From: a virus
Taxonomy: Duplodnaviria > Heunggongvirae > Uroviricota > Caudoviricetes
Length of the DNA: 64,000 bases
IMG/VR virus record: IMGVR_UViG_2671180984_000014
Direction: 5' to 3' (one strand)
Of the stretch, positions 157 through 7,771 are shown piece after piece. The position numbers and the translations under genes are program-made. Numbering within the stretch: the first letter of the stretch is position 1; every line of letters starts with the position of its first letter. The notes beneath the pieces were generated by a model that did no database searches, was not told where the DNA came from, and saw nothing but the letters and a program-made list of their open reading frames with translations.

Positions 157-441
157 CTAACTTACCTGAACCAGGCCGTCTCCGGACGCTACGGTAGATC
201 CGCATGAAACAGGGTCACCAACGCATACGATCCCTTTACCATTGACGGTAAACCATGCCCTGGTTGATATAGCTTGCCCACCGTGCGTACTGTTTCCATC
301 GGTATGCTGTGCATATTGCTTACCATCAACTAACACTTCGACTCCGTTGACTTTAAGTAGTGGTTCACTCTCTACAGGAGGCCTGGATGGGAATCCTCCG
401 TGCCCCGAACAAATGCTGTCTTTTGTTGCAATGCTTGCCAC
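157..441 (-). CDS. PAAR-like small protein (possible spike-tip protein)
   Basis: 94-aa ORF, GTG start; Gly/His-rich segments (SGHGG, STHGG) and C-terminal VCVGDPVSCGST reminiscent of PAAR-repeat proteins; weak call. Confidence 0.35.
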   Translation of the reverse strand: MASIATKDSICSGHGGFPSRPPVESEPLLKVNGVEVLVDGKQYAQHTDGNSTHGGQAISTRAWFTVNGKGIVCVGDPVSCGSTVASGDGLVQVS

Positions 442-895: not shown

Positions 896-1793
896 GCACT
901 GGAAAAACATTACTATTTATAAACTTTCTCGTGAGGCGGATCTGACCGACTTAGAAGATAAAAAGAAAATGATCCTTTTCACGCCATGCGGTAGTCAGGA
1001 TATGGCCAAGTTCGGTTTTGTATCGCCATTTGGTGATAATTCTGAAGTTATCGCTATGCATGGAAATGGTTTTATCCTTGTTGAAGCAAAGCGCGAAACA
1101 AAAATTCTTCCCCCGCCGGTTATCCAGCGAGCTATTCAAGAAAAAATTGAAAAACTTGAGCAAGAACAAGCGCGTAAACTGAAGAAAACAGAGAAGGACT
1201 CCCTGAAAGACGAAGTTCTGCATTCTCTTCTGCCACGGGCTTTTTCAAAGTTTTCTGTTATCCAGGCGATCTACGACGGTTCAACTAAACGTATCTATAT
1301 CAATGCCAGCGCGCGGCAGGCAGAGGATATGCTCGCGCTTATGCGTAAGTCTCTGGGTTCTCTTCCTGCTGTTTCCCTGAGTGTTGAAAATCCCATTGAA
1401 TTAACGCTGACCGACTGGGTACGTGATGGTAGTGCTCCACAGGGATTTCAAATGGGGGATGCGGCAGAACTTAAGGCAGTGCTTGAGGATGGCGGTATTG
1501 CCCGAGTGAAAAAGCAGGATTTGGGAAGCGATGAAATTTCCACACACCTGGAAGCTGGCAAGCTCGTCACTAAGTTGGCACTCGACTGGCAGAACCGCAT
1601 TAAATTTACACTGGACCATAACTTCAGCCTTACCAGCGTCAAATTTGCGGATGAATTGCTTGAGCAGAACTCTGATATTGATAGTGAAGATGTTGCGCAG
1701 CGACTGGACGCAGATTTCTTCCTGTTGACCAGTGAAATTTCGTGCCTGGTTGATGCTCTGGTAAATGCCCTTGGCGGAGAGGCTAAGCAGTGA
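888..1793 (+). CDS. rdgC: RdgC-family recombination-associated protein
   Basis: 301-aa ORF with near full-length resemblance to enterobacterial RdgC ([38 protein letters not shown]-terminal GGEAKQ); stop overlaps GTG start of next gene (GTGA). Confidence 0.85.
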
Positions 1794-4700
1794 AAGAGCT
1801 GTGCTATGGATCTGTTTGCAGTGGAATTGAAGCCGCGAGTATTGCCTGGGAACCGTTGGGTATGCGTCCGGCGTGGTTTGCTGAAATCGAGCCTTTTCCA
1901 TCGGCCGTTCTTGCGCTCCGCTGGCCCCATGTTGCCAACCTTGGCGACATGAAAAAACTTGCCAAAAAAGTCTTGGCTGGGGAAATCGAATCCCCTGACG
2001 TGCTCGTCGGGGGAACACCATGTTTTACCGCGGGGCATATGGTTCTTTGTAAAAATGGCTATAAACCAATAGAAAATGTTTGCCCTGGTGATTACGTAGT
2101 CAGTCATCTCGGGCGGTTACAACAAGTAAAAAGAGTTGGTTCAAAAATAGCTAATACGGGGTTACTTAATGCCGTTGGGCAGCCTTTAGGTATAAGAACA
2201 ACCAATGACCATCCCTTCCTGGCTGTTCGGTGGAAAGCCCAAAACACCCGGAAAAATGGCACATATTTTAAGAGAGAGTTGTTGTCTGAACCGGAATGGC
2301 GAGCAGCATGTGATATGCCGGGATATCAATGGTGCGCTCTAACTAATTTCAATATTGCATTTCCAGATATTTGTTCTCGGTTCTTGTCTGAAGAACAGGC
2401 TATGTATCTTGCGGGCGCTTATGTTGGCGATGGATATATTAGGAGATGGAGAGGTAAATCTAAGAAGGCGGTTGTTTTTGGCATAAATTGCCAGAAATTG
2501 AGAAAGTTTCATTGCCGCATACCAGAAAACATATTTTCCGTGGCAAGCGAAATCCGAGGGAGCATCAAAGTAACCTTGAATGATACGTGTTATGCCAATT
2601 GGCTTAATGAACATTTTGGCGAGTTAAGCCATGCTAAGCGTATCCCTGCATGGGTGATGTCGCATCCATTGCGTCATGTGTTTTTACAAGGCTATCTTGA
2701 TACTGATGGGACACCAAGTGGTAAAGCGGGATTTAGAATTAATAGTGTTAGTTCTGCGCTTGCTTGGGGCGTTGCGGGGTTGTCACAGACTTGTGGTTAT
2801 GTTTCTTCGGTCAGCTTTATTGAAGTTGAGCCCAAAAAAGTGATCGAGGATCGCGTGGTAAATCAACGGAATTATTATCAGGTAACAATCTGCCCGCAGA
2901 AATTGTCACGTAAATCAAGATTGGCTCATGGAATGCTTTTACGAACAGTCAAAGAGTTTAAATCGGTAGGCCTAGATACTGTATACAACATAGAAGTCGA
3001 AGGTGATCATTCCTATATCCTCAATGGTGCGGTGGTCCATAACTGTCAGGCATTCAGTATCGCGGGATTACGTGGTGGGCTTGATGATGAGCGTGGCGCG
3101 CTAACTTTAAAGTATGTGGAGCTTGCAAATGCAATTGACGACAAACGGGCTGAGTCATTTCTCAAACCAGCCGTTATCGTCTGGGAAAATGTCCCAGGAG
3201 TCTTGTCATCGGCAGATAACGCCTTCGGATGTTTCCTTGCCGGATTGGCTGGAGAAGATGTGCCATTTGAACCAGGTGATCGACCTGAATCAGGAAAAAG
3301 CAACGCGTTCTGGCGGTGGGATGGCAAAACCGGTTGCCATGTTCCAAAGTGGCCGCAGTGTGGTTGTATTTATGGACCGCAGCGAAAAGTGGCCTGGAGA
3401 ATCCTTGATGCCCAATACTTCGGAGTGGCACAACGACGCCGACGCGTGTTTGTTGTCGCAAGTGCTCGAACAGATCTCGATCCCGCAACGGTACTTTTTG
3501 AGTTCGAAGGCGTGCGCCGGAATATTGCGCCGAGCAGAGGCGAGGGGAAGGAAACTACCAGATATACTTCAAACATCGCTATCAGAACTTGCGATGATAC
3601 AAACATAATTGCCATGGCACATGGGCAAGGAGGGGCTGAGATAAAAACCGATAATTCGGCACCAACTTTGACATGTAACCATGAAGCACCAATTGTATTG
3701 CTCGGCGACGGTAGAATGCGCCGTCTTACCCCTGTCGAATGTGAAAGGCTGCAAGGTTTTCCTGATTGGCATACGTTGATCCCTACGGAAAAGCGTAAAA
3801 AAGTTAATTCAGATGAACTGGCATATCTGCACAATCACTATCCAGATTTAAGCGAAGAAGAGGCCGCAATGCTTGCAGCTGACGGACCGCGTTACAAAGC
3901 GATCGGCAATAGTATGGCAATACCAGTAATGCGCTGGATTGGCGATCGGATTACTAAGGCCGTATGTCGGCAGAAAGAAGGAAGTGAAACAAAAGAGCGA
4001 AAAGTTAAACCAGCGGCAGAATTCGAACGGTCCATATTCAAATGGGCTGGTGGAAAATTTGGTGTTCTGGAACAAATCTTTCGCTATTTGCCAGAAGGGA
4101 AGCGCCTGATTGAACCTTTCGTTGGTGGCGGAGCTGTCTTCATGAATGCCGGATACCAGGAAAATCTGCTAAATGATGTGAATGCTGACCTGATTAACTT
4201 TTACAAGACTCTGCAACGCGAGGCGCATTCACTTATCACTCTGGCACATCGTTTCTTCCAGGACTACAACACACAGGAAGGATACCTGGCAGTACGGAAT
4301 GCGTTTAACAAACAAGTCTATGATGATTTACATCGCGCAGCGGCGTTTTTGTTCCTGAACCGACATTGTTTTAACGGATTGACGCGTTACAACCAGGCCG
4401 GTGAGTTCAATGTCGGTTATGGGAAGTATAAAACTCCGTATTTCCCATTACAGGAGATGGAAGCCTTCCTCGGTGCGGAAGGGCGGTCTGAGTTTGTATG
4501 CGGTGATTTTGCAGCGGTGATTGAAGCTGCCGGAGAAGGAGATGTCATCTTTTGCGATCCGCCGTATGAACCGCTTCCAAATACAGAGGGATTCACGAAC
4601 TATTCCGGTCATGACTTTAAGTTTGAAGAGCAAAAACGCCTGGTGTCTCTGTTGACGGATGCTCATCGTCGAGGTGCAAAGGTTCTCATTACTAACAGTG

Positions 4701-4831
4701 GCGCGCCAAACATCAGAGAGCTTTATCATGACAGTGGCTTCAGAGTGGAACCTCTTTTTGCCAGACGTTCTGTGTCTTGTAAGGGGGACACTCGAGGTGT
4801 AGCTCATGACGTTTTGGGTATATTGCTCTAA
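1790..4831 (+). CDS. dmt: bifunctional DNA methyltransferase (C5-cytosine MTase fused to Dam-family N6-adenine MTase), intein-containing precursor
   Basis: 1013-aa uninterrupted frame; C5-MTase motif I (SVCSGIEAA), split motif IV (GGTP / CQAFSIAG), motif VI (VWENVPG), VIII (QRRRRVF), X ([13 protein letters not shown]); C-terminal ~270 aa with FKWAGGK and FCDPPYEP of Dam-class MTases. Confidence 0.85.
2021..3043 (+). mobile_element. intein with LAGLIDADG homing-endonuclease domain, in frame inside C5-MTase motif IV
   Basis: 341 codons starting with Cys (CFTAGHMVL), block B TxxH (RTTNDHPF), two LAGLIDADG-like blocks ([21 protein letters not shown]), terminal VVHN followed by +1 Cys; removal restores [12 protein letters not shown]. 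Confidence 0.8.
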
Positions 4832-5503: not shown

Positions 5504-5578
5504 GATGGTGTAGCTCAGCGGTAGAGCAGTTGGCTGTTAACCAACTGGTCGGTAGTTCGAATCCACCCACCATCGCCA
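5504..5578 (+). tRNA. trnA: tRNA-Asn (anticodon GTT)
   Basis: cloverleaf: acceptor GATGGTG/CACCATC, D-arm GCTC-AGCGGTA-GAGC, anticodon stem GTTGG/CCAAC with loop CTGTTAA, T-loop TTCGAAT, encoded CCA. Confidence 0.7.
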
Positions 5579-5583
5579 CTTTA

Positions 5584-5670
5584 GGGGAGTTAGTCCGTAG
5601 GGGTAGCGGGGTAGACTGTAAATCTACTGTCATTGCGACTCGGGTGGTTCGACTCCATCACTCCCCACCA
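5584..5670 (+). tRNA. tRNA-Tyr-like (anticodon GTA), long variable arm
   Basis: acceptor GGGGAGT/ACTCCCC perfectly paired, anticodon stem GTAGA/TCTAC with loop CTGTAAA, long variable arm, T-loop TTCGACT, encoded CCA; D-arm less canonical. Confidence 0.55.
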
Positions 5671-5674
5671 CATT

Positions 5675-5750
5675 GCCGATTTAGCTCAGTTGGTAGAGCA
5701 GTCGCTTTGTAAGCGAATGGTCAGCGGTTCGATCCCGTTAATCGGCACCA
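5675..5750 (+). tRNA. trnT: tRNA-Thr (anticodon TGT)
   Basis: acceptor GCCGATT/AATCGGC, D-arm GCTC-AGTTGGTA-GAGC, anticodon loop TTTGTAA, T-arm AGCGG-TTCGATC-CCGTT, encoded CCA. Confidence 0.8.
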
Positions 5751-6623: not shown

Positions 6624-6860
6624 ATGCAGAACAATCCGAACAAATGTCGAACGCTATGGGTGCGGTTATATATTTATGCCGTCCTCTGTTTGATTGTGTC
6701 ACTGGTTCTGTATGTTTGGCTTTTGCCAAATATGATCTCATCTAACAGCACAATACTTGTATTGTTGGGAGTCCTTCTCGCGCTCATTTACCCGGCTTTC
6801 GCAGTAGTCTTTTTTCGTGAAAAAACCAGGAAATTAATTAATGAAAAAAACGTTGATTAG
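6624..6860 (+). CDS. upl: small membrane protein upstream of plp
   Basis: 78-aa ORF with two hydrophobic helices; overlaps plp start; position matches P1 upl. Confidence 0.45.
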   Translation: MQNNPNKCRTLWVRLYIYAVLCLIVSLVLYVWLLPNMISSNSTILVLLGVLLALIYPAFAVVFFREKTRKLINEKNVD

Positions 6861-7668
6861 TGCAGCGATTATTTTGGGTTCTTTATGTCTGACCGGATGC
6901 GATCGGGTAGAGCCAGGTAACGTAGGGATCAAAGTAAATAAGCTGGGGGATGATAAAGGTATCGGTGAAGTAGTTGGCGTTGGTCGCTACTGGACAGGCT
7001 TGAATACTGAAGTTTATATCTTCCCGACCTTTAAGCAAATGAAGACATACGATGAGCCGTTCAGCTTCCAGATGAGCGACGGAACAACCATTGGTTACCA
7101 CATCGGCGTAGCCTACAAGGTTGATCCAGCAAAAGTCACAACGGTATTTCAGACCTATCGCAAAGGTGTAGATGATATTACTGATACCGATCTACGCCAG
7201 AAGGTTGCAGATGCTCTGAACCGATTAGCCAGCAAAATGACCACCGACAAATTTATCGACGGTGGCAAATCTGAATTGCTTGATGCAGCCCTTAAAGACA
7301 TTCAGGAAGAAATGACGCCAATCGGCATTCAGGTGATGAGCCTCTCTTATGTAGGTAAGCCAGAATACCCGCCAACAGTTATTGACAGTATTAACGCCAA
7401 AGTCACGGCAAACCAAAAAACCCTGCAACGCGAGCAAGAGGTCAAACAACGTGAAGCAGAGGCCAACATGCTGCGCGCGGAAGCTGCCGGACAGGCTGAT
7501 GCTATTCGCACAAAAGCCCAGGCCGAAGCTGATGCCATTCGTTTACGTGGTGAAGCTCTGCGCCAGAACCCCGGTGTTATGGACTTGGAAGCGATCAACA
7601 AATGGAACGGTACATTACCGCAGTATATGACCAGTAATACCGCTGTTCCGTTTGTTCCGGTGAAATAA
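6841..7668 (+). CDS. plp: SPFH/band-7 domain lipoprotein
   Basis: signal peptide with lipobox LTGC; prohibitin/HflC-like core and Ala/Glu-rich coiled-coil tail. Confidence 0.7.
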   Translation: MKKTLISAAIILGSLCLTGCDRVEPGNVGIKVNKLGDDKGIGEVVGVGRYWTGLNTEVYIFPTFKQMKTYDEPFSFQMSDGTTIGYHIGVAYKVDPAKVTTVFQTYRKGVDDITDTDLRQKVADALNRLASKMTTDKFIDGGKSELLDAALKDIQEEMTPIGIQVMSLSYVGKPEYPPTVIDSINAKVTANQKTLQREQEVKQREAEANMLRAEAAGQADAIRTKAQAEADAIRLRGEALRQNPGVMDLEAINKWNGTLPQYMTSNTAVPFVPVK

Positions 7669-7695: not shown

Positions 7696-7771
7696 GGCCC
7701 TTTAGCTCAGTGGTTAGAGCTGGCGACTCATAATCGCACGGTCACCGGTTCAAGTCCGGTAGGGGCCACCA
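7696..7771 (+). tRNA. trnI: tRNA with CAT anticodon, tRNA-Ile2 (lysidine) type rather than tRNA-Met
   Basis: acceptor GGCCCTT/AGGGGCC, anticodon loop CTCATAA, T-arm ACCGG-TTCAAGT-CCGGT, encoded CCA; overall close to enterobacterial ileX as recalled. Confidence 0.75.

What the first reader, a model, noticed from the sequence alone, without database searches (positions are those of the whole stretch)
2021..3043. Homing-endonuclease intein splitting the catalytic PCQ motif of the Dmt cytosine methyltransferase
The 1013-aa methyltransferase frame reads GGTP, then 341 residues beginning CFTAGHMVL and ending VVHN, then CQAFSIAG. Removing the 341 residues recreates the canonical C5-MTase motif IV ([12 protein letters not shown]), so the +1 nucleophile of the intein is the catalytic Cys of the enzyme. 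The insert has intein block A (Cys1), block B TxxH (RTTNDHPF), two LAGLIDADG blocks ([21 protein letters not shown]) and terminal HN. Inteins are rare in enterobacterial phages, and an intein gating a phage antirestriction/epigenetic enzyme would make methylase activity conditional on protein splicing.
Basis: seen in the sequence. Interest (0 to 1): 0.85.

Follow-up and report, generated by a model that had tools for sequence, protein, structure and literature searches.

The report
Mobile intein in phage P1 methyltransferase
The DNA methyltransferase gene (dmt) of this P1-like phage is interrupted, exactly at the enzyme's catalytic cysteine, by a real self-splicing intein that carries its own homing endonuclease; it is a textbook kind of selfish element, but at a site and in a model phage where I found no published description.

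Summary
Window 2021-3043 is a 341-aa in-frame insert in the 1013-aa dmt ORF (1790-4831), reading GGTP|CFTAGH…VVHN|CQAFSIAG. P7 Dam, the P1 reference Dmt and eight other fetched alleles lack exactly these 1023 nt and read [10 protein letters not shown].

The insert has Cys1, TNDH (block B), two LAGLIDADG motifs with their aspartates (D137, D229), block F, a terminal HN and a +1 Cys. The AlphaFold model (pLDDT 90.9) matches PI-SceI and the Tli/Pho VMA, PI-PfuI and PI-PkoII inteins (E down to 4e-18).

The intein is in about 25-32% of natural P1-type dmt alleles and in three TRD backgrounds. Its synonymous diversity is 3-8 times lower than that of the host gene. One synonymous marker next to the junction (CCA vs CCT) is perfectly linked to intein presence. 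These are signatures of spread by homing.

It belongs to a large family: 129 of 141 full-length representative clusters sit at the same Pro|Cys site of C5 methyltransferases, mostly uncharacterised and some phage-borne.

Splicing and DNA cleavage were not tested. The idea that the intein "gates" the enzyme as regulation is speculation. It is a new member of a known kind, of moderate interest.

The parts
1790..4831 (+). dmt ORF (1013-aa precursor): N-terminal C5-cytosine methyltransferase domain interrupted by the intein, C-terminal Dam-type N6-adenine methyltransferase domain
   Evidence: ORF; PF00145 7e-30, PF02086 2e-56; TIGR00571 6e-74, above cut-off; 100% identical to the dmt of NC_013370.1
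1790..2020 (+). N-extein (77 aa) ending GGTP, the first half of motif IV
2021..3043 (+). Intein, 341 aa (38.3 kDa), 42.7% GC against 49.1% for the exteins
2021..2023 (+). Cys1 (block A nucleophile)
   Evidence: invariant in 141/141 family representatives
2201..2212 (+). Block B TxxH (T61-N-D-H64)
   Evidence: T in 138/141 and H in 141/141
2381..2890 (+). Nested LAGLIDADG homing-endonuclease domain (about residues 121-290; boundaries approximate, taken from the model's secondary structure)
   Evidence: PF14528 3e-8; helix-strand pattern in the model; Foldseek hits to I-DmoI and I-SceI for this part
2408..2434 (+). LAGLIDADG motif 1, LAGAYVGDG (catalytic Asp137)
   Evidence: D in 132/141 and G in 141/141
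2684..2710 (+). LAGLIDADG motif 2, LQGYLDTDG (catalytic Asp229)
   Evidence: D in 139/141 and G in 137/141
2981..3043 (+). Blocks F and G: [21 protein letters not shown] (D329, H330, H340, N341)
   Evidence: TIGR01443 above cut-off; aligned to the Spl DnaX mini-intein C-terminus; N341 in 141/141, H340 in 127/141
3044..3067 (+). +1 Cys, which is also the catalytic Cys of motif IV, and the rest of the motif (CQAFSIAG)
   Evidence: +1 Cys in 137/141
1997..2020 (+). Upstream half of the presumed homing site. The last base (2020, third position of Pro77) is A in all 11 intein-bearing alleles and T in all 10 empty alleles
3539..3718 (+). Variable target-recognition region of the C5 domain (the short variant here). 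Other alleles carry cassettes longer by 246, 405 or 570 nt
4025..4816 (+). Dam-type N6-adenine methyltransferase domain (residues about 746-1009), not interrupted

Best explanation
Window 2021-3043 encodes a class-1 intein with a nested, monomeric two-motif LAGLIDADG homing endonuclease. It is inserted between Pro77 and the catalytic Cys of motif IV (GGTP|CQAFSIAG) in the C5-cytosine methyltransferase domain of the bifunctional P1-type Dmt.

Inferred mechanism, by analogy with characterised class-1 inteins. The 113-kDa precursor undergoes an N-S acyl shift at Cys1. The +1 Cys then carries out trans-thioesterification, Asn341 cyclises (assisted by His340), and an S-N shift follows. The products are a 74.7-kDa Dmt with motif IV restored and a free 38.3-kDa intein. 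Before splicing the C5 domain cannot be active, because its Pro-Cys dipeptide is separated by 341 residues. The C-terminal Dam domain is uninterrupted and probably works either way.

The endonuclease domain is inferred to cut intein-less dmt alleles at the TPCQ-coding site when two P1-like elements meet in one cell. Repair of the break from the intein-bearing copy then copies the intein plus a short flanking tract (homing).

Shown here: the anatomy, the fold, the precise empty-site alleles, family-wide conservation of the catalytic residues, and the population signatures. Inferred: actual splicing, actual cleavage, and that the Dam domain is independent of splicing.
For: Anatomy and junctions.

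Precise presence/absence: P7 Dam and the P1 reference Dmt lack exactly the 341 aa. All 11 fetched intein-bearing alleles have intact ORFs with identical junctions, and all 10 empty alleles read TPCQAFSIA.

Profiles: LAGLIDADG_3 3e-8, intein_Cterm TIGR01443 above cut-off, Hint_2 at the cut-off.

Fold: AF2 model with pLDDT 90.9 and pTM 0.88. Top Foldseek hits are PI-SceI 4e-18, TliVMA 1e-16, PI-PfuI 1e-11, PhoVMA and PI-PkoII, followed by the free LAGLIDADG enzymes I-DmoI and I-SceI.

Family: 186 representative clusters at E<=1e-30. Of 141 full-length matches, 129 are inserted at xP|C…N|C and 110 read HN|CQ. Conservation: C1 100%, H64 100%, N341 100%, +1 Cys 97%, D137 94%, D229 99%.

Selection: dN/dS is 0.11 and 0.17 for the N- and C-terminal splicing parts. 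The exteins of intein-bearing alleles are as constrained (0.13-0.18) as those of empty alleles (0.13-0.16).

Mobility: the intein occurs with three TRD types. Intein pS is 0.016, against 0.097, 0.047 and 0.122 for the N-extein, proximal C-extein and Dam part of the same 11 alleles. The base next to the junction is perfectly linked to intein presence, and L010 switches to the P1/P7 haplotype within 24 nt downstream. Intein-bearing and empty alleles interleave on the Dam-part tree. Intein GC is 42.7% against 49.1%.
Against: There is no experimental evidence for splicing or cleavage. Pfam Hint_2 (28.1 vs 28.4 bits) and Intein_splicing (21.7 vs 35.8 bits) fall below their gathering scores.

About 70% of alleles remain uninvaded although their target sequence is conserved, so the endonuclease could be weak, inactive or rarely given the opportunity. 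dN/dS in the endonuclease part is higher (0.58), but this rests on 11 polymorphic codons and is not significant (Fisher p=0.22).

P1-like genomes are mosaic, so ordinary homologous recombination could produce part of the patchy distribution. The population sample is 21 alleles chosen for diversity, not a random sample.
Confidence: 0.85

Rival explanations
1. It is a splicing-competent intein whose endonuclease is no longer active in P1-like elements. It persists by vertical inheritance, and its patchy distribution comes from ordinary homologous recombination between mosaic P1-like genomes, not from homing.
For: About 70% of alleles are empty despite a conserved target. dN/dS of the endonuclease part is 0.58 against 0.11-0.17 for the splicing parts. 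The C5 and Dam parts of dmt give different trees, so recombination within the gene is frequent anyway. Across the wider family, intein identity correlates with extein identity (r=0.64).
Against: Both catalytic aspartates and the glycines of the LAGLIDADG motifs are intact in all 11 alleles, and none of the 11 amino-acid polymorphisms touches them. The dN/dS difference is not significant (p=0.22). Intein synonymous diversity is 3-8 times lower than that of the flanks. Recombination breakpoints lie within 24-47 nt of the intein in L010. Both points fit targeted transfer better than random recombination.
Confidence: 0.25
2. It is a dead insertion. The intein no longer splices, the C5 domain is permanently inactivated, and the gene is kept only for its C-terminal Dam activity, which P1 needs for packaging in Dam-minus hosts (PMC12707154).
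For: The Dam domain is uninterrupted. The C5 function of Dmt is annotated only as 'perhaps' in the P1 and P7 records. Decayed copies of the family do exist: the Mannheimia prophage copy has a broken C-extein.
Against: All splicing residues are intact in 11 of 11 alleles, and the splicing parts have dN/dS of 0.11-0.17. The C5 exteins of intein-bearing alleles are under the same purifying selection as those of empty alleles (0.13-0.16). There were no frameshifts or stops in the sampled alleles, and the exact protein is seen on at least 1000 contigs.
Confidence: 0.06
3. The intein has been co-opted as a switch. Splicing is conditional (for example on redox state through a Cys1/Cys+1 disulfide, or on DNA or SAM binding), so cytosine methylation turns on only in particular phases of the phage-plasmid life cycle.
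For: Both nucleophiles are cysteines and the +1 Cys is the enzyme's active-site residue. Conditional splicing has been reported for other inteins, such as mycobacterial DnaB (PMC6195587, PMC7360933) and RadA (PMC5238726). The intein is kept at intermediate frequency, about 30%.
Against: Nothing in the sequence data speaks to regulation. Insertion at a catalytic residue is the usual consequence of homing endonucleases targeting conserved DNA. Intermediate frequency and low diversity are what a selfish homing cycle predicts.
Confidence: 0.08
4. The segment is an ordinary methyltransferase insertion (a target-recognition or accessory domain) and not a mobile element.
For: C5 methyltransferases do carry variable domains, and this gene has a separate variable TRD cassette.
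Against: The segment is precisely absent from most alleles. It has a Hint plus LAGLIDADG fold. It splits the invariant Pro-Cys dipeptide, which cannot tolerate a 341-aa insertion. The real TRD lies about 500 nt downstream.
Confidence: 0.01

Closest known systems
PI-SceI (Saccharomyces VMA1 intein) and the archaeal VMA, PI-PfuI and PI-PkoII inteins
   Same: Class-1 intein with Cys1, a terminal HN and a +1 Cys. It has a Hint splicing domain with a nested two-motif LAGLIDADG endonuclease. These are the best structural matches (Foldseek E 4e-18 to 2.5e-9, TM 0.53-0.64).
   Different: Sequence identity is only 11-17%. The P1 intein is smaller (341 against 360-540 aa), and whether it has the extra DNA-recognition region of PI-SceI was not analysed. 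The host protein and insertion site are unrelated. Activity has been shown for those inteins but not for this one.
Inteins in actinophage DNA methylases (mycobacteriophage DNMT-1/2, Kelley et al. 2016, PMC5050341; Dorothy gp75 family, Gosselin et al. 2023, PMC9957025)
   Same: A LAGLIDADG-containing intein in an orphan phage DNA methyltransferase. It has a patchy distribution among related phages and shows evidence of transfer between divergent host alleles.
   Different: Those hosts are N6/N4 (amino) methyltransferases of actinophages. This one is a C5-cytosine methyltransferase of an enterobacterial phage-plasmid, inserted at the catalytic Pro-Cys. Sequence relatedness to those inteins was not tested here.
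Uncharacterised 'Hint domain-containing' / 'DOD-type homing endonuclease' C5 methyltransferases in databases (e.g. the Mannheimia haemolytica prophage protein P0010, and metagenomic P0037-P0183)
   Same: The same intein family at the same insertion site (xP|C…HN|CQ), 27-56% identical, with the same catalytic residues. At least two are phage or prophage borne.
   Different: Only automated names exist for these proteins. Some copies are decayed (P0010 has a broken C-extein, P0020 is a remnant) or are mini-inteins lacking the endonuclease (P0019). The P1-type copy is fused to a Dam domain and sits in a genetically tractable model phage.

Membership tests
Class-1 intein (Hint-fold protein-splicing element) | Nucleophile (Cys/Ser) at intein position 1 | tested here: met
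   Cys1 at 2021-2023; 141/141 in the family
Class-1 intein (Hint-fold protein-splicing element) | Block B TxxH | tested here: met
   T61-N-D-H64; T 98%, H 100%
Class-1 intein (Hint-fold protein-splicing element) | C-terminal His-Asn followed by a +1 Cys/Ser/Thr | tested here: met
   VVHN|C; TIGR01443 above cut-off; N 100%, H 90%, +1 Cys 97%
Class-1 intein (Hint-fold protein-splicing element) | Hint fold | tested here: met
   AF2 model pLDDT 90.9; Foldseek matches to PI-SceI, TliVMA, PI-PfuI and Prp8 inteins. Pfam Hint_2 scores 28.1 bits, just under its 28.4 cut-off
Class-1 intein (Hint-fold protein-splicing element) | In-frame insertion in a conserved host-protein motif, with homologues that lack it precisely | tested here: met
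   10 empty alleles read TPCQAFSIA; the length difference is exactly 1023 nt
Class-1 intein (Hint-fold protein-splicing element) | Autocatalytic excision with ligation of the exteins | not testable with these tools
   Needs expression and SDS-PAGE/MS (113 kDa giving 74.7 + 38.3 kDa). Indirect support: purifying selection on the splicing parts and on the exteins
LAGLIDADG homing endonuclease (monomeric, two-motif) | Two LAGLIDADG motifs, each ending in an acidic residue followed by Gly | tested here: met
   LAGAYVGDG and LQGYLDTDG; PF14528 3e-8, above cut-off; D137 94%, D229 99%
LAGLIDADG homing endonuclease (monomeric, two-motif) | Two-lobed alpha/beta LAGLIDADG fold | tested here: met
   Foldseek hits of the central part to I-DmoI, I-SceI, I-AniI and I-OnuI (E 4e-5 to 3e-3); alternating helix and strand pattern at residues 124-292
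LAGLIDADG homing endonuclease (monomeric, two-motif) | Site-specific cleavage of the intein-less allele | not testable with these tools
   The candidate target is conserved in the empty alleles: GGGGGWACRCCT|TGTCAGGCATTCAGTATCGC
LAGLIDADG homing endonuclease (monomeric, two-motif) | Population signature of homing (patchy distribution, low diversity of the element relative to the host gene, co-converted flanks) | tested here: met
   Caveat: the 21 alleles were not sampled at random, and general recombination is not excluded
C5-cytosine DNA methyltransferase (host protein, PF00145) | Motif IV Pro-Cys restored after removal of the insert, plus the other conserved motifs | tested here: met
   PF00145 7e-30 in four stretches; [17 protein letters not shown] and QRRRR are visible in the alignment. 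TIGR00675 scores 95.5, just below its 100.65 cut-off, for the interrupted protein
Dam family N6-adenine methyltransferase (C-terminal domain) | Match to the Dam family model above its cut-off | tested here: met
   TIGR00571 249 bits against a cut-off of 114.85; PF02086 2e-56

The most novel reading that the evidence does not exclude
The intein is not merely selfish but has been co-opted by P1-like phage-plasmids as a post-translational switch. Because Cys+1 is both the splicing nucleophile and the methyltransferase's catalytic residue, and because the Dam domain is uninterrupted, conditional splicing (redox-, DNA- or SAM-dependent) would let the element keep GATC methylation constitutive while turning m5C methylation on only in certain hosts or life-cycle phases. 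The roughly 30% allele frequency would then reflect balancing selection, for example against hosts that carry m5C-dependent type IV restriction.
Probability: 0.08. Interest if true: 0.75.

Novelty: new member of a known kind. Interest (0 to 1): 0.45.

Why it matters
P1 is one of the oldest model phages, and P1-like phage-plasmids are common carriers of resistance genes in E. coli and Salmonella. About a quarter to a third of natural dmt alleles carry an intein, including one laboratory 'P1' stock (OP279344). Databases label the protein only as 'Dam family methyltransferase'.

This has three practical consequences. Gene and protein sizes and domain annotations for Dmt are misleading. Lab P1 stocks differ at this locus. 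And E. coli gains a ready-made, genetically tractable system for studying intein homing and its cost in a temperate phage, with natural empty-site and filled-site alleles, and for asking whether splicing limits m5C methylation.

The work also shows that the Pro|Cys site of C5 methyltransferases is a recurrent intein insertion site: 129 of the 141 full-length representative clusters examined (50% identity clusters) sit there. I could not find this described in the searchable literature.

Tried and rejected
1. Nine full-text literature searches found nothing on a P1, Dmt or C5-methyltransferase intein. They covered intein combined with P1, P1-like, phage-plasmid, Dmt, cytosine methyltransferase, cytosine-5 and OP279344. 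The 'intein' hits in the BASEL paper and the plasmid-mobility review were irrelevant. Subscription-only papers and intein databases could not be searched, so an earlier listing cannot be excluded.

2. A PDB sequence search gave only weak hits: Spl DnaX mini-intein 1.5e-3 and PI-PkoII 0.024. The fold search was needed for a clear answer.

3. I tested for relaxed selection on the endonuclease domain. The trend (dN/dS 0.58) is not significant (Fisher p=0.22), so I make no claim about endonuclease decay.

4. My first script failed because the locus files hold several records each. It was rerun successfully.

5. I considered and rejected a TRD or accessory-domain insertion (precisely absent in most alleles). 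I rejected a group I intron because the reading frame is continuous and the product has a Hint fold. I rejected a bacterial intein-like (BIL) domain because the segment has a conserved +1 nucleophile, a nested endonuclease and empty-site alleles.

6. My count of representatives that also carry a Dam domain used too strict a filter and returned 0, although P0037 clearly covers the Dam part. That number should be ignored.
Full report
**Observation.** The window holds a 1013-aa ORF at 1790..4831 on the + strand. Reading the DNA places Pro77 at 2018-2020, a Cys codon at 2021-2023, the string …VVHN ending at 3043, and a second Cys codon at 3044-3046 followed by QAFSIAG. The insert is therefore exactly 2021-3043 (1023 nt, 341 aa), and removing it gives [12 protein letters not shown].

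**What the locus is.** The gene is dmt of a P1-like phage-plasmid. It is 100% identical to the dmt of plasmid NC_013370.1 from E. coli O111:H- strain 11128 and 96-99% identical, outside the insert, to dmt/dam of P1, P7, RCS47, SJ46 and others. It follows hrdC/rdgC and precedes a tRNA cluster, as in P1. Pfam and NCBIfam find an N-terminal C5-cytosine methyltransferase (PF00145, in four stretches because it is interrupted) and a C-terminal Dam domain (PF02086 2e-56; TIGR00571 249 bits against a cut-off of 115).

**The insert is an intein.**
- Empty-site alleles exist. P7 dam spans 2019 bp, which is 3042 minus 1023, and a protein alignment shows the 341 aa missing between P77 and the Cys in both P7 Dam and the P1 reference Dmt.
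- In 21 alleles fetched for diversity, all 11 intein-bearing alleles have intact ORFs, a 341-aa insert and identical junctions. All 10 empty alleles read TPCQAFSIA.
- Profiles: LAGLIDADG_3 E=3e-8 and the intein C-terminal model TIGR01443 pass their cut-offs. Hint_2 sits at its cut-off (28.1 against 28.4 bits). Intein_splicing is sub-threshold.
- Fold: an AlphaFold2 model built from an alignment of homologues is confident (pLDDT 90.9, pTM 0.88). Its best PDB matches are all inteins with nested LAGLIDADG endonucleases: PI-SceI 4e-18, TliVMA 1e-16, PI-PfuI 1e-11, PhoVMA 4e-11 and PI-PkoII 2.5e-9. Free LAGLIDADG enzymes (I-DmoI, I-SceI) and mini-inteins (Prp8) follow.
- The PDB sequence search alone was weak.

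**A site-specific family.**
- The word-indexed protein search returned 20 proteins, every one carrying PF00145 (C5 methyltransferase) or a fragment of the intein. Those that span the N-terminal junction have the intein at the same site.
- The exhaustive search of 1.84 billion cluster representatives found 4287 proteins at E<=1e-3 and 186 at E<=1e-30.
- Of the best 150, 141 cover the whole intein. Of these, 129 are inserted as xP|C…N|C, 110 read HN|CQ, and 116 have an ENV/ENS motif just downstream.
- Across these 141 sequences (27-56% identical to the query, apart from one near-identical representative) the functional residues are almost invariant: C1 100%, T61 98%, H64 100%, D137 94%, G138 100%, D229 99%, block-F Asp 93%, H340 90%, N341 100%, +1 Cys 97%. 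Both the splicing and the endonuclease chemistry are therefore under long-term selection in the family.
- Intein identity tracks identity of the C5 extein (r=0.64). The closest non-P1 relative, P0037, is a Dmt-like C5-Dam fusion with a 56%-identical intein in a 59%-identical C5 domain. This points to a long association with this gene family.
- At least two distant members are phage-borne: a Mannheimia haemolytica prophage copy whose C-extein is broken, and a mini-intein without endonuclease on a phage-like 61-kb contig.

**Frequency and mobility within P1-like elements.**
- The intein DNA is found in 129 PLSDB plasmids and in 152 of 5426 complete E. coli genomes, always inside dmt. The 3' part of dmt is found in 480 genomes, and dmt matches 498 plasmid records, of which 126 carry the intein. 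That is about 25-32% of alleles.
- The intein occurs with three of at least four TRD cassettes. Intein-bearing genes span 3042, 3288 or 3447 bp; empty genes span 2019, 2265, 2424 or 2589 bp.
- Among the 11 intein-bearing alleles, synonymous diversity of the intein (pS 0.016) is far below that of the same alleles' N-extein (0.097), proximal C-extein (0.047) and Dam part (0.122).
- The third base of the Pro codon next to the junction is A in all 11 intein-bearing alleles and T in all 10 empty ones. It is the only perfectly linked flanking site.
- L010 (third TRD type) carries the intein-associated haplotype upstream of the junction but switches to the P1/P7 haplotype within 24 nt downstream.
- On a tree of the Dam part, intein-bearing and empty alleles interleave. 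On a tree of the C5 flanks, the intein-bearing alleles cluster, except L010.
- The intein is also AT-richer than its host gene (42.7% against 49.1% GC; profile).
- Together these are the expected footprints of homing with short co-conversion tracts. The sample is small and was not drawn at random, P1-like genomes recombine freely, and no cleavage was shown.

**Selection.** dN/dS is 0.11 for the N-terminal splicing part and 0.17 for the C-terminal one. The C5 and Dam exteins are equally constrained in intein-bearing (0.13-0.18) and empty (0.13-0.16) alleles. This argues against a dead insertion that has killed the C5 domain. The endonuclease part has a higher ratio (0.58), but it rests on 7 nonsynonymous and 4 synonymous polymorphic codons and is not significantly different from the splicing parts (Fisher p=0.22). 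None of the 11 amino-acid polymorphisms touches a catalytic residue.

**Mechanism (inferred).** Standard class-1 splicing would use Cys1 and the +1 Cys, with Asn341 cyclisation. It would convert a 113.0-kDa precursor into 74.7-kDa Dmt plus a 38.3-kDa intein. The C5 domain must be inactive until splicing, because its Pro-Cys catalytic dipeptide is split. The Dam domain, which P1 needs for pac-site methylation in Dam-minus hosts (PMC12707154), is not interrupted, and this may lower the cost of carrying the intein. Insertion at the catalytic residue is the usual outcome of endonucleases targeting the most conserved DNA. It does not by itself indicate regulation, and conditional splicing remains an untested possibility.

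**Comparison with what is known.** Structurally this is an ordinary PI-SceI-type intein. Inteins in phage DNA methylases have been described, but in N6/N4 methyltransferases of actinophages (PMC5050341, PMC9957025). Nine full-text searches found no description of an intein in P1, Dmt or any C5-cytosine methyltransferase. Database names for this protein mention only Dam. Relatives carry automated 'Hint domain' or 'DOD-type homing endonuclease' labels. Subscription journals and intein databases were not searchable, so prior listing cannot be excluded.

**Verdict.** This is a new member, at a new host protein and insertion site, of a well-known kind of element. Interest is moderate.

Noticed in passing
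window 3539-3718 (dmt residues about 584-643): The target-recognition region of the C5 domain is a swappable cassette. At least four variants exist among P1-like elements: the short one here and in P7, plus forms longer by 246 nt (P1 reference), 405 nt and 570 nt. They combine freely with presence or absence of the intein. The methylation specificity of each is unknown.
   Followed up: partly
L004 (AF234172.1, P1 reference) dmt codon 74; equivalent to window 2009-2011: The sequenced laboratory P1 (mod749::IS5 c1.100) reads VWGTPCQ where all 20 other alleles examined read VGGTPCQ. This is a Gly-to-Trp change inside motif IV. It might impair the C5 activity of the reference strain and could explain why that activity is annotated only as 'perhaps'.
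   Followed up: no
L001 (OP279344.1, 'Escherichia phage P1 isolate del res del mod'): A laboratory P1 stock used in Argonaute studies (bioRxiv 10.1101/2022.09.09.507302) carries the intein and the short TRD, unlike the P1 reference genome. Lab 'P1' stocks are therefore not uniform at dmt.
   Followed up: partly
window 5504-5750 and 7696-7771: The tRNA cluster downstream of dmt has Asn(gtt), Tyr(gta) and Thr(tgt), plus a tRNA-Met(cat) further on. The P1 and P7 annotations list only Asn and Thr in the stretches I looked at. The extra tRNA-Tyr is shared with phage vB_EcoM-Ro157c2YLVW.
   Followed up: no
window 6841-7668 (+): A 275-aa ORF with a lipoprotein-like N-terminus is an SPFH/Band 7 family protein (PF01145, 1e-30). 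It lies between the tRNA cluster and tRNA-Met. I did not compare it with the corresponding P1 region.
   Followed up: partly
L021 8001-10321 (Mannheimia haemolytica CP151240.1 prophage): A 47%-identical copy of the intein sits in a prophage C5 methyltransferase whose C-extein is broken straight after the junction (HN|CQSDKGG…). It is followed by a separate methyltransferase fragment and a free-standing HNH (I-HmuI-like) endonuclease gene, so two kinds of homing element appear to have piled up in one decaying gene.
   Followed up: partly
L023 8001-8921 (P0019, phage-like 61-kb contig JAMQYI010913998.1): A mini-intein of the same family, at the same Pro|Cys site but with no endonuclease domain, occurs in a C5 methyltransferase on a phage-like contig. 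This is the endonuclease-loss stage of the homing cycle.
   Followed up: no
window 157-441 (-): A 94-aa ORF upstream of the uhr/hrdC/dmt operon matches the position of P1 upfC. The P1 record notes similarity of upfC to T4 gp5.4. I did not examine it.
   Followed up: no
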